IMG/VR virus record: IMGVR_UViG_2663763287_000005
Source: a virus
Taxonomy: Duplodnaviria; Heunggongvirae; Uroviricota; Caudoviricetes
Reading direction: 5' to 3' (one strand)
Length of the DNA stretch: 8,985 nt
The notes under the pieces are model-generated. The model was not told where the DNA came from. It made no database searches and saw only the letters and a program-made list of their open reading frames with translations. The translations under genes and the position numbers were made by a program. Of the stretch, positions 4,128 to 5,699 are shown piece by piece; the stretch's first letter is position 1, and each line of letters starts with the position of its first letter.

Positions 4128-5699
4128 TCTTTCACATATTATCGCTGCGGCATTCAATGAGCCGCTGCTTCTGGAGCCCGCCTATGCGCGGGTTTTCTTT
4201 TGCGCGCTCGGGCGTGAGATGGGCGCAGCAAGCCTTTCGGTACCGCAACAGCAGGTACAGCTTGACGCTCCCGGGATGCTGGCTGAAACGGACGAGTACA
4301 TGGCCGGAGGCAAACGACCTGCCCGTGTTTACCGGGTGGTGAACGGTATTGCTGTACTGCCGGTGACCGGCACGCTGGTACACCGGCTGGGTGGCATGCG
4401 GCCATTTTCCGGAATGACTGGCTATGACGGCATTGTCGCCTGTCTTCAGCAGGCAATGGCGGACACTCAGGTACGGGGCGTACTGCTGGACATTGACAGT
4501 TCTGGCGGGCAGGCCACCGGCGCGTTTGACTGCGCTGACATGATTTACCGTCTCCGGCAGCTGAAGCCTGTCTGGGCACTGTGCAATGACACGGCCTGTT
4601 CAGCCGCCATGTTACTGGCATCGGCCTGCTCCCGACGGCTGGTTACCCAGACATCCCGTATCGGCTCCATTGGGGTGATGATGGGCCATGTCAGCTATGC
4701 CGGTCATCTGGCACAGGCCGGTGTGGATATCACGCTGATTTACGCCGGATCGCACAAGGTGGATGGCAATCAGTTTGAATCCCTGCCAGCAAAGGTTCGC
4801 CAGGACATGCAGCAGCGCATTGATGCGGCGCGCCGGATGTTTGCTGAAAAAGTGGCGATGTATACCGGTTTATCTGTGGATGCGGTTATGGGAACAGAGG
4901 CCGCCGTTTTTGAAGGTCAGTCCGGTATTGAGGCCGAACTGGCGGATGAATTAATCAATGCGTCGGACGCCATCAGCGTGATGGCTGCGACGCTGAACAC
5001 ACACGATACAGGAGGCACTATGCCGCAATTAACTGCAACGGAGGCTGCCGCGCAGGAGAACCAGCGAGTGATGGGGATCCTGACGTGTCAGGAAGCGAAA
5101 GGACGTGAACAACTGGCCACGATGCTGGCAGGGCAACAGGGTATGAGCGTTGAGCAGGCCCGGGCGATTCTGGCCGTGGCGGCACCGCAACAATCTGGTG
5201 TATCTGCGCAGAGTGAAGCCGATCGCATTATGGCATGTGAAGAGGCGAAAGGACGTGAACAACTGGCGGCAACGCTGGCGGCGATGCCGGAGATGACGGT
5301 GGAAAAAGCCCGTCCGATTCTGGCTGCTTCACCGCAGGCGAATGCCGGACCCTCACTTCGTGATCAGATTATGGCCCTGGATGAGGCAAAAGGGGCAGAG
5401 GCGCAGGCTGAAAAACTGGCGGCCTGTCCGGGGATGACCGTGGAGAATGCCCGGGCTGTACTGGCGGCAGCCTCAGGCAGGGCAGAACCGGTTTCTGCAT
5501 CCACAACCGCCATGTNNNNNNNNNNNNNNNNNNNNNNNNNNNNNNNNNNNNNNNNNNNNNNNNNNNNNNNNNNNNNNNNNNNNNNNNNNNNNNNNNACAT
5601 TTCATGGCGAACCATTCACCGGCAGCGGTACAGGGTGGCGTGCCACAGACGTCAGCAGACGGTGATGCGGACGTGAAAATGCTCATGGCCATGCCATGA
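4117..5699 (+). CDS. C: Prohead protease / minor capsid protein C (S49 ClpP-like peptidase) with C-terminal scaffold region; interrupted by assembly gap 5516-5596
   Basis: GTG 4117 (GAGGAG at 4101-4106) gives MRRNLSHIIAAAFNEPLLLEPAYARVFFCAL...NGIAVLPVTGTLV...SGMTGYDGIV...DCADMIYRLRQLKPVWALCNDTACSAAMLLASACSRRLVTQTSRIGSIGVMMGH...GVDITLIYAGSHKVDGN...TEAAVFEGQSGIEAELADELIN, colinear with lambda gpC (recalled), including the serine-peptidase region around CSA. It overlaps the portal 3' end by 11 nt. 466 codons are read before the N run. The true C-terminus is unresolved; a post-gap frame ending at TGA 5697-5699 (...SPAAVQGGVPQTSADGDADVKMLMAMP) is my candidate, with low confidence on the exact end. 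Confidence 0.82.
5020..5699 (+). CDS. nu3: Candidate nested in-frame scaffolding protein (lambda Nu3-like) from an internal start within C
   Basis: Strong AGGAGG at 5010-5015, 4 nt upstream of in-frame ATG 5020 (MPQLTATEAAAQENQRVMGIL...). In lambda, Nu3 is translated from an in-frame internal start in the 3' part of C, and the downstream motif IMGILNCEEAHGRE... aligns with IMGILTCQEAKGRE here. The 3' end carries the same gap uncertainty as C. Confidence 0.45.
5065..5515 (+). repeat. Three diverged tandem in-frame copies of a ~141-150 nt coding repeat inside C/nu3
   Basis: Protein copies are (R1) IMGILTCQEAKGREQLATMLAGQQGMSVEQARAILAVAAPQ, (R2) IMACEEAKGREQLAATLAAMPEMTVEKARPILAASPQ and (R3) IMALDEAKGAEAQAEKLAACPGMTVENARAVLAAASG. 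An exact 23-mer gcgaaaggacgtgaacaactggc occurs at 5095-5117 and 5245-5267 (150 nt offset); the third copy is more diverged (gaggcaaaagg at 5383-5393). The array abuts the N run at 5516. Confidence 0.75.
5516..5596. other. Assembly gap (81 N)
   Basis: Uninterrupted run of N seen directly, immediately after the third repeat copy in C/nu3. Confidence 0.99.

What the first reader, a model, noticed from the sequence alone, without database searches (positions are those of the whole stretch)
5065..5596. Scaffold (nu3) region of C carries three diverged tandem copies of a motif that lambda has once
The motif I-M-x-x-x-E-A-K-G-R-E...G-M-T-V-E-x-A-R-x-I-L-A-A occurs three times in tandem with 150 and ~141 nt periodicity. 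The copies are diverged at the nucleotide level apart from one exact 23-mer, so this is not a trivial assembly duplication. In lambda gpC/Nu3 as I recall it, the motif (IMGILNCEEAHGREEQARVLAETPGMTVKTARRILAAAPQ) occurs once. The array runs directly into the N gap, which is where assemblers typically break, so more copies may be hidden. A multiplied scaffold motif could change scaffold valency or interactions, or be a recombination-prone length-variable region.
Basis: partly seen in the sequence, partly recalled or inferred. Interest (0 to 1): 0.55.

Follow-up and report, generated by a model that had tools for sequence, protein, structure and literature searches.

The report
Known "Tri box" scaffold repeats
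The three repeats are real, but they are the "Tri boxes" annotated decades ago in the head-scaffold gene of phage 21; a third of complete E. coli genomes carry them, and the N gap hides only about four bases, not extra copies.

Summary
The scaffold part of the C-like gene holds three diverged tandem copies of a 43-46 residue motif that lambda has once. DNA spacing is 150 and 141 nt, and copies are 48-62% identical as protein.

It is not new. GenBank M81255 (phage 21 head operon) annotates the same three segments as "Tri1 box", "Tri box" and "Tri3 box" in gene 6, the Nu3 homologue. The window protein is about 94% identical to phage 21 gp5.

The same three-box region occurs in 1870 of 5426 complete E. 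coli genomes. All 80 close viral contigs retrieved encode a 501-residue protein with boxes at fixed positions.

The 81-N run stands for 4 nt (TTGA) in three records that match the flanks at 99.9-100%. No copies are hidden.

The box is a small three-helix module without a Pfam family. It is widespread and usually single-copy, about 50 residues from the C-terminus of S49 prohead proteases and small scaffold proteins. All three boxes are under purifying selection (dN/dS 0.03-0.18). The triplication predates the split of the Escherichia, Salmonella, Trabulsiella and Providencia phage lineages.

Copy number does vary. A four-box lineage occurs in 106 genomes, and rare two-box deletions exist. What the box binds is still unknown.

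The parts
4117..5699 (+). Gene for the S49 prohead protease-scaffold fusion, the homologue of lambda C and phage 21 gene 5. It is 501 aa once the N run is replaced by TTGA. GTG start, TGA stop at 5697-5699.
   Evidence: Pfam PF01343 Peptidase_S49 at residues 147-292, E 3e-33. About 94% identical to phage 21 gp5 and 100% identical to proteins in L004, L005 and L055.
5010..5015 (+). AGGAGG ribosome-binding site for the nested scaffold gene.
   Evidence: Read directly from the sequence. It aligns with the RBS annotated for gene 6 in M81255 and OL657228.
5020..5699 (+). Nested in-frame scaffold gene, the homologue of phage 21 gene 6 and lambda Nu3. It is 200 aa once the gap is filled.
   Evidence: The ATG at 5020 aligns with the annotated gene 6 start in both phage 21 records. 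PHROG scaffold and capsid-assembly families 8399 and 8940 each match three stretches.
5056..5193 (+). Box 1 (C residues 314-359). The GenBank 'Tri1 box' maps to 5087-5190. This is the orthologue of lambda's single box and carries the extra V-M-G.
5215..5343 (+). Box 2 (C residues 367-409). The GenBank 'Tri box' maps to 5227-5337.
5356..5484 (+). Box 3 (C residues 414-456). The GenBank 'Tri3 box' maps to 5368-5481.
5516..5596 (.). Run of 81 N. It is a placeholder of arbitrary length that stands for 4 nt (TTGA) in identical relatives.
5485..5696 (+). Conserved C-terminal tail of about 45 aa (EPVSASTTAMFEHFMANHSPAAVQGGVPQTSADGDADVKMLMAMP), interrupted by the N run.
   Evidence: A tail of about 50 aa follows the last box in both long and short family members.

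Best explanation
This is the ordinary three-box ('Tri box') scaffold domain of a phage-21-type lambdoid prophage. It lies in the shared C-terminal part of the nested gene pair gp5 (S49 prohead protease, homologue of lambda C) and gp6 (scaffold, homologue of lambda Nu3). Shown here: each box is an independently predicted three-helix mini-domain of about 45 residues, and the boxes are joined by short flexible linkers. Box 1 is the orthologue of the single box in lambda. Boxes 2 and 3 are old tandem duplicates that lack three residues. All three are kept by purifying selection. Because of the nested start at 5020, the same boxes are present in both the protease and the free scaffold. Inferred: the box is a protein-protein contact module used in procapsid assembly. 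It would bind the inner face of the major capsid protein and/or other scaffold chains, and so also carry the protease into the shell. Three boxes would give each chain three contact sites where lambda has one. The conserved charged loop E-A-K-G-R-E between helices A and B is the most likely contact surface. The N run hides 4 nt, not further boxes.
For: Identity with a known feature: M81255 annotates Tri1, Tri and Tri3 boxes in gene 6 at positions that map onto the three units, and OL657228 annotates the same nested scaffold gene. Prevalence: 1870 of 5426 complete E. coli genomes carry the region. All 80 viral contigs retrieved, plus Trabulsiella (71% identity) and Providencia (60%), have three boxes. 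Gap. Structure: the single-box model has pLDDT 86 and pTM 0.65 with three helices. The three-box model has pLDDT about 80 within boxes, below 50 in a linker, and pTM 0.32, so no fixed arrangement between boxes is predicted. The box model superimposes on predicted S49 prohead proteases of Salmonella phage 37, a cyanophage and a Siphoviridae contig (TM 0.86-0.91, rmsd about 1 A). Family: a box profile finds 1589 cluster representatives. Of the top 150, 138 have one box, 9 have two and 3 have three. A tail of about 50 residues follows the box. Of 57 long representatives, 56 carry Peptidase_S49. Selection: dN/dS is 0.03-0.18 in each box, against 0.07-0.16 in the protease domain for the informative comparisons. 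Units group by position across genera, and box 1 groups with the single boxes. Literature: lambda Nu3 interacts with itself, with C and with E in yeast two-hybrid tests, and Nu3 is needed for portal incorporation (PMC3224144). C and Nu3 are essential (PMC10695390).
Against: No experiment or solved structure shows what a box binds. There is no sequence match in the PDB and no significant fold match to solved structures, including the P22 scaffold helix-turn-helix. The GenBank note itself reads 'function unknown; putative'. The capsid-binding element could instead be the conserved extreme C-terminal tail, as in other scaffolds, leaving the boxes with a different role. Phage 21 and lambda have homologous major capsid proteins of nearly the same length. 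From general knowledge, not tested here, both build T=7 heads, so three boxes are not needed for a different capsid geometry.
Confidence: 0.8

Rival explanations
1. The boxes are self-association modules: they drive scaffold-scaffold and scaffold-protease oligomerisation and do not bind the capsid protein. Capsid binding would then be done by the conserved C-terminal tail.
For: Nu3-Nu3 and Nu3-C interactions are reported for lambda (PMC3224144). The tail of about 50 residues after the last box has a constant length across the family and a conserved end, LM.MP or LLNTPV. From general knowledge, in many other scaffolds the capsid-binding element is at the extreme C-terminus.
Against: No direct data exist. 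AlphaFold predicts no contacts between boxes within a chain (pTM 0.32). A Nu3-E interaction is also reported, but it is not mapped to a region.
Confidence: 0.3
2. More repeat copies are hidden in the N run, or the array is an assembly artefact.
For: The array ends 31 nt before a run of N. Contigs often break at repeats.
Against: One record with 100% identical flanks and two with 99.9-100% identical flanks, two of the three being complete genomes, have exactly 4 nt in place of the N run. Phage 21 and the O121 strain show the same spacing. A filling of 81 nt breaks the frame, while 4 nt restores a 501-aa protein that exists elsewhere. The units are only 72-78% identical in DNA, too diverged to confuse an assembler. 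The three-box form occurs in 1870 complete genomes.
Confidence: 0.02
3. The repeats act at the DNA or RNA level, for example as protein-binding sites, a recombination hot spot or an RNA structure, and not as protein modules.
For: OL657228 marks two pattern-matched CII sites on the minus strand inside gene 6. These correspond to window 5025-5038 and 5259-5272. One unequal-crossover product and one clean box deletion were seen.
Against: The CII pattern occurs 2 times against 1.63 expected by chance. Nucleotide sequences have diverged while the residues are kept, with dN/dS 0.03-0.18. There is no Rfam match and no excess of promoter-like or terminator-like sites. Length variants are rare.
Confidence: 0.03
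4. Boxes 2 and 3 are redundant duplicates drifting towards loss, and only box 1 functions.
For: Lambda and most of the family manage with one box. A two-box variant exists in a complete genome.
Against: Boxes 2 and 3 show dN/dS as low as box 1. They are retained at fixed positions in phage lineages from four genera. The two-box variant sits in a prophage with a truncated capsid gene.
Confidence: 0.07

Closest known systems
Phage 21 genes 5 and 6 with Tri1, Tri and Tri3 boxes (GenBank M81255.1, re-annotated in OL657228.1)
   Same: Same nested protease and scaffold genes, same internal start with RBS, and the same three boxes at the same positions. The proteins are about 94% identical, and gene order is the same: terminase, W-like, portal, C/Nu3-like, decoration, major capsid.
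   Different: About 6% of residues are substituted. The window is a prophage copy whose portal gene carries a frameshift. Nothing differs in the repeat architecture.
Lambda gpC and gpNu3 (S49 protease with nested scaffold)
   Same: Homologous over the whole protease domain, box 1 and the C-terminal end, at 52-56% identity. Both have the nested arrangement and the same genomic position.
   Different: Lambda has one box and a 36-residue insert before it that the 21-type lacks. Its annotated Nu3 start lies further upstream, inside the protease domain, at C residue 239 against residue 302 in the 21-type.
Four-box E. coli prophage variant (P0024 / L136)
   Same: Same family and same gene neighbourhood: decoration protein, E-type capsid protein, FI.
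   Different: It has four boxes, of which boxes 2-4 are about 80% identical to each other, so they duplicated more recently. It occurs in only 106 of 5426 genomes.
P22 gp8 scaffold C-terminal helix-turn-helix (coat-binding domain)
   Same: A small helical module in a largely flexible scaffold protein that contacts the capsid protein. This is a functional analogy from the literature (PMC11922011).
   Different: No sequence or fold match was detected. The P22 module is single-copy and at the extreme C-terminus, whereas the boxes here are internal and triplicated. This is an analogy only, not membership.
Herpesvirus UL26 / UL26.5 nested protease-scaffold genes
   Same: A protease and a scaffold share one C-terminal region through an internal start, so the protease is carried into the shell with the scaffold (general knowledge, not tested here).
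   Different: The protease fold is unrelated and there is no sequence similarity. This is an analogy only.

Membership tests
Lambda gpC / phage 21 gp5 family (S49 prohead protease with C-terminal scaffold domain) | N-terminal Peptidase_S49 domain | tested here: met
   PF01343, E 3e-33, residues 147-292.
Lambda gpC / phage 21 gp5 family (S49 prohead protease with C-terminal scaffold domain) | Position between the portal gene and the decoration and major capsid genes of a lambdoid head operon | tested here: met
   The portal homologue lies at 2534-4127. ORFs at 5736-6083 and 6141-7169 lie in DNA collinear with the phage 21 shp and major capsid genes, and relatives annotate them as head decoration protein and major capsid protein.
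Lambda gpC / phage 21 gp5 family (S49 prohead protease with C-terminal scaffold domain) | Nested in-frame scaffold gene with its own ribosome-binding site | tested here: met
   AGGAGG at 5010-5015 and ATG at 5020 align with the annotated gene 6 start in M81255 and OL657228. Expression was not tested.
Phage 21-type Tri-box scaffold | Three tandem boxes at the positions annotated as Tri1, Tri and Tri3 in M81255 | tested here: met
   The alignment is collinear and gap-free through the array. The annotated features map to 5087-5190, 5227-5337 and 5368-5481.
Phage 21-type Tri-box scaffold | Full-length protein of 501 aa with the conserved C-terminal tail | tested here: met
   With TTGA in place of the N run the protein is 501 aa and 100% identical to proteins in L004, L005 and L055. 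In the window itself the N run leaves this unread.
Phage 21-type Tri-box scaffold | Scaffold and protease function in procapsid assembly | not testable with these tools
   This needs genetics or biochemistry. The prophage here has a frameshifted portal gene and may not be viable.
P22-type scaffold helix-turn-helix coat-binding domain | Structural similarity to the P22 gp8 C-terminal domain | tested here: not met
   Foldseek of the box model against the PDB gave no match with E at or below 0.001 and no scaffold protein among the hits.

The most novel reading that the evidence does not exclude
The Tri box is an uncurated but widespread binding module of S49-protease-linked scaffolds: it has no Pfam family, yet 1589 cluster representatives match it. 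Its copy number (1, 2, 3 or 4) would set how many capsid-protein or scaffold contacts each chain makes. In the 21-type lineage the three boxes may have taken on distinct, position-specific roles, since each position is conserved separately across genera. Box number would then be a natural, testable way to tune procapsid assembly kinetics or fidelity.
Probability: 0.3. Interest if true: 0.4.

Novelty: already known. Interest (0 to 1): 0.15.

Why it matters
It matters little as a discovery. The triplication has been annotated in the phage 21 sequence record (M81255, early 1990s by my recollection), and it is carried by about a third of complete E. coli genomes. Two things remain of some value. 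First, the function of the box is still marked 'unknown', and it has no Pfam family and no solved structure, even though it is the most conserved element of lambda-family scaffolds. Second, natural one-, two-, three- and four-box variants offer a ready-made series for testing how the number of contact sites on a scaffold affects head assembly.

Tried and rejected
- Tandem Repeats Finder found nothing, because the copies are too diverged. The gap-free repeat finder and a protein profile were needed instead.
- Pfam and NCBIfam have no family for the box.
- The PDB sequence search found nothing.
- Foldseek of the three-box model and of the single-box model against the PDB gave only insignificant hits. 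No fold assignment is made, and kinship with the P22 helix-turn-helix is rejected as a membership claim.
- The paper that should describe the Tri boxes (Smith and Feiss, Gene 1993, recalled from memory) and the gpNu3 biophysics paper (Medina et al. 2011) are not held in the library. The 'already known' claim therefore rests on the GenBank feature table of M81255.
- The word-indexed protein search returned mostly partial proteins. The census was therefore done on fetched loci, on E. coli genome BLAST counts and on the exhaustive profile search.
- A DNA- or RNA-level function was rejected. There is no Rfam hit, the CII-site pattern occurs at the chance level, and there is no excess of promoter-like or terminator-like sites.
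- The two-box proteins P0021 and P0015 come from a 1.4-kb draft contig and a metagenome scaffold, so they could be assembly collapses. Only the O157:H7 strain 7636 case, from a complete genome, is treated as solid.

Full report
**What is in the sequence**

Window 4117-5699 (+) is one long gene, interrupted by a run of N at 5516-5596. Its product has an N-terminal Peptidase_S49 domain (PF01343, E 3e-33). The C-terminal part holds three tandem units of 43-46 residues with the pattern I-M-x-x-x-E-A-K-G-R-E ... G-M-T-V-E-x-A-R-x-I-L-A-A.

At the DNA level the copies start 150 and 141 nt apart and are 72-78% identical. As proteins the units are 48-62% identical. Their pairwise alignment scores lie 12-19 SD above shuffled controls. 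Tandem Repeats Finder missed the array because the copies are too diverged.

**Lambda has one copy**

Lambda C (NC_001416, 4418-5737) has a single unit, ENSRIMGILNCEEAHGREEQARVLAETPGMTVKTARRILAAAPQSA.

**The N run hides four bases**

Three records match the window on both sides of the gap, and each has just 4 nt between the flanks:
- E. coli ECMA0423, a complete genome: 100% upstream, one mismatch in the 1600 nt downstream.
- S. flexneri SFBU1023, a complete genome: the same.
- IMGVR_UViG_2609460183_000003: 100% on both sides. Its sequence reads ...GCCATGT-TTGA-ACATTTC....

Phage 21 and an O121 strain show the same spacing. With 81 nt the reading frame breaks, whereas with TTGA it continues to ...MLMAMP*. 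The filled protein is 501 aa and identical to proteins encoded in those three records. The array ends at 5484, so no box is cut by the gap. The second N run (2195-2307) is likewise not true to length.

**It is an annotated, known feature**

The region is 92% identical in DNA to phage 21. GenBank M81255.1, 'Bacteriophage 21 head gene operon', annotates gene 5 and a nested gene 6 with its own ribosome-binding site.

In window coordinates these map to 5087-5190, 5227-5337 and 5368-5481, which are the three units. The 2022 complete genome OL657228 annotates the same nested pair as 'capsid protease/scaffolding protein' and 'scaffolding protein'. M81255 is listed as an earlier fragment of that genome (PMC9119081). 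In the window, the nested start is ATG 5020, preceded by AGGAGG at 5010-5015.

I recall the source paper as Smith and Feiss, Gene 1993. It is not in the held library, so the claim rests on the feature table.

**How common it is**

| Scaffold type | Complete E. coli genomes (of 5426) |
|---|---|
| Three-box, phage 21-type | 1870 (2923 places) |
| One-box, lambda-type | 3228 |
| Four-box variant | 106 |

All 80 close viral contigs retrieved encode a 501-residue protein with boxes at the same positions. Relatives in Trabulsiella (71% identity) and Providencia (60%) also have three boxes. Lambda-like relatives in Enterobacter, Klebsiella, Erwinia, Serratia and Aeromonas have one.

**History of the repeats**

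Box 1 carries three extra residues (V-M-G) and clusters with the single box of lambda-type proteins. It is therefore the original copy. Boxes 2 and 3 mostly group by position across genera, for example window box 2 with Salmonella box 2, and window box 3 with Trabulsiella and Salmonella box 3. The triplication is therefore older than the split of these phage lineages, and the copies have not been homogenised.

In the four-box variant, boxes 2-4 are about 80% identical to each other, so they expanded more recently.

Length changes by recombination do occur but are rare:
- One partial protein has a hybrid of box 1 and box 2. It comes from a 1.4-kb draft contig.
- The complete genome of O157:H7 strain 7636 has a clean in-frame loss of one unit, giving a 452-aa protein with the junction ...AAAPQ|ADAGPS... 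That prophage has a truncated capsid gene.
- At most 7 of 1875 matching records lack a full-length match.

**Selection**

Against phage 21 and five other relatives, each box has dN/dS of 0.03-0.18. The protease domain gives 0.07-0.16 in the informative comparisons. Linker 1 is the least constrained segment. All three boxes are being kept as protein.

**What a box is**

AlphaFold with 31 box sequences gives a three-helix mini-domain: helix A, the conserved E-A-K-G-R-E loop, helix B, a G-M-T turn, and helix C (pLDDT 86, pTM 0.65). The three-box segment is predicted as three such units joined by low-confidence linkers, with no fixed mutual arrangement (pTM 0.32).

There is no Pfam or NCBIfam family for the box, no PDB sequence match and no significant match to solved folds. 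Against predicted viral structures, the box superimposes at about 1 A on S49 prohead proteases of Salmonella phage 37, a Synechococcus phage and a Siphoviridae contig.

A box profile searched against 1.84 billion representative proteins finds 1589 at E of 0.001 or lower. Of the best 150:
- 138 have one box, 9 have two and 3 have three.
- The box sits a constant ~50 residues from the C-terminus, both in proteins of about 450 aa and in stand-alone proteins of about 140 aa.
- 56 of the 57 long representatives carry Peptidase_S49.

PHROG single-box scaffold families match the window protein three times. The box is therefore the conserved core of lambda-family scaffolds. One copy is the rule, and the 21-type lineage is the main multi-copy branch.

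**How it probably works**

These parts are shown:
- The boxes are shared by the protease and the free scaffold through the nested start.
- They are folded modules on flexible linkers.
- They are under selection.

Background from the literature: lambda Nu3 and C are essential (PMC10695390). Nu3 interacts with itself, with C and with the capsid protein E, and it is needed for portal incorporation (PMC3224144).

The rest is inferred. The box would be a contact module for procapsid assembly. It would bind the inner face of the capsid protein and/or other scaffold chains, and would thereby also load the protease. The charged EAKGRE loop is the likely contact surface, and three boxes would give three contact sites per chain.

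The main rival on mechanism is that the boxes only mediate self-association and the conserved C-terminal tail binds the capsid protein. I cannot separate the two with these tools. The resemblance to the P22 scaffold helix-turn-helix is an analogy only, because the fold test was negative.

**Other readings rejected**

- A DNA- or RNA-level role is unlikely. There is no Rfam hit. The CII-site pattern marked in OL657228 occurs 2 times against 1.63 expected by chance. Promoter-like and terminator-like sites are not in excess. The residues are conserved while the codons have drifted.
- An assembly artefact is excluded by the complete genomes and by the separately sequenced phage 21 records.

**Verdict**

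It is extremely common in E. coli, stable in length, and not extended under the N run. The remaining open question is what the box binds and what copy number does. That question is modest but testable.

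Noticed in passing
window 2534-4127: The portal gene is frameshifted. Phage 21 portal residues 1-331 match 2534-3526 in one frame and residues 325-521 match 3507-4097 in the next frame (ORFs 2534-3589 and 3504-4127). The same DNA, 100% identical from 2617 on, is present in E. coli ECMA0423, S. flexneri SFBU1023 and an IMG/VR contig. The shift is therefore probably real and the prophage probably defective.
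   Followed up: partly
window 2195-2307: A second run of N (113 N) lies near the end of the terminase large-subunit gene. Phage 21 has only about 52 nt between the flanking aligned blocks, so this run is also not true to length.
   Followed up: partly
window 4117-5699 compared with L002 (O121, CP119441) and L056: There is a mosaic joint near the protease/scaffold boundary. The O121 strain has a scaffold part identical to the window (0 differences in 600 nt) but a diverged protease part (dS 0.22). L056 shows the reverse: 3 differences in the protease part and dS 0.35 in the scaffold part.
   Followed up: partly
L010-L020 and L027-L054 (genome-contig hits): Many lambda-type C genes, each a 1284-nt match at 52% identity to the query, sit on low-coverage contigs of about 48 kb or very short contigs in assemblies of unrelated organisms (Kitasatospora, Shewanella, Pseudomonas, Oceanobacillus, an Akkermansia MAG and others). 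This looks like lambda DNA contaminating those assemblies.
   Followed up: no
L140 (E. coli O157:H7 strain 7636, NZ_CP038421.1 2124428-2125786): This S49 peptidase is 452 aa with only two boxes. One unit is cleanly deleted in frame, with the junction AAAPQ|ADAGPS between the similar ends of box 1 and box 2. The prophage has a truncated major capsid gene.
   Followed up: yes
L136 1-1043 (E. coli GCA_032727965.1); P0024: A four-box variant of the scaffold domain has boxes 2-4 about 80% identical to each other. It occurs in 106 of 5426 complete E. coli genomes, next to ordinary decoration, E-type capsid and FI genes.
   Followed up: partly
window 5485-5696 (C-terminal tail) and the box starts at 5056, 5215 and 5356: The tail begins with A-M-F-E-H-F-M-A (lambda: A-L-D-R-L-M-Q). 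This resembles the start of each box (E-A-D-R-I-M-A, L-R-D-Q-I-M-A), as if a partial extra 'helix A' follows the last box.
   Followed up: no
window 5025-5038 and 5259-5272, minus strand: These two positions match the CII-site pattern TTGYNNNNNNTTGY and correspond to sites annotated by pattern in OL657228. The count is at the chance level, 2 found against 1.63 expected.
   Followed up: yes
P0154 (844 aa, from the representative library): One library protein fuses a tape-measure-like N-terminal part to a full lambda C sequence. It is probably a chimeric gene call or a misassembly, and it explains some stray Pfam hits in the architecture census.
   Followed up: no
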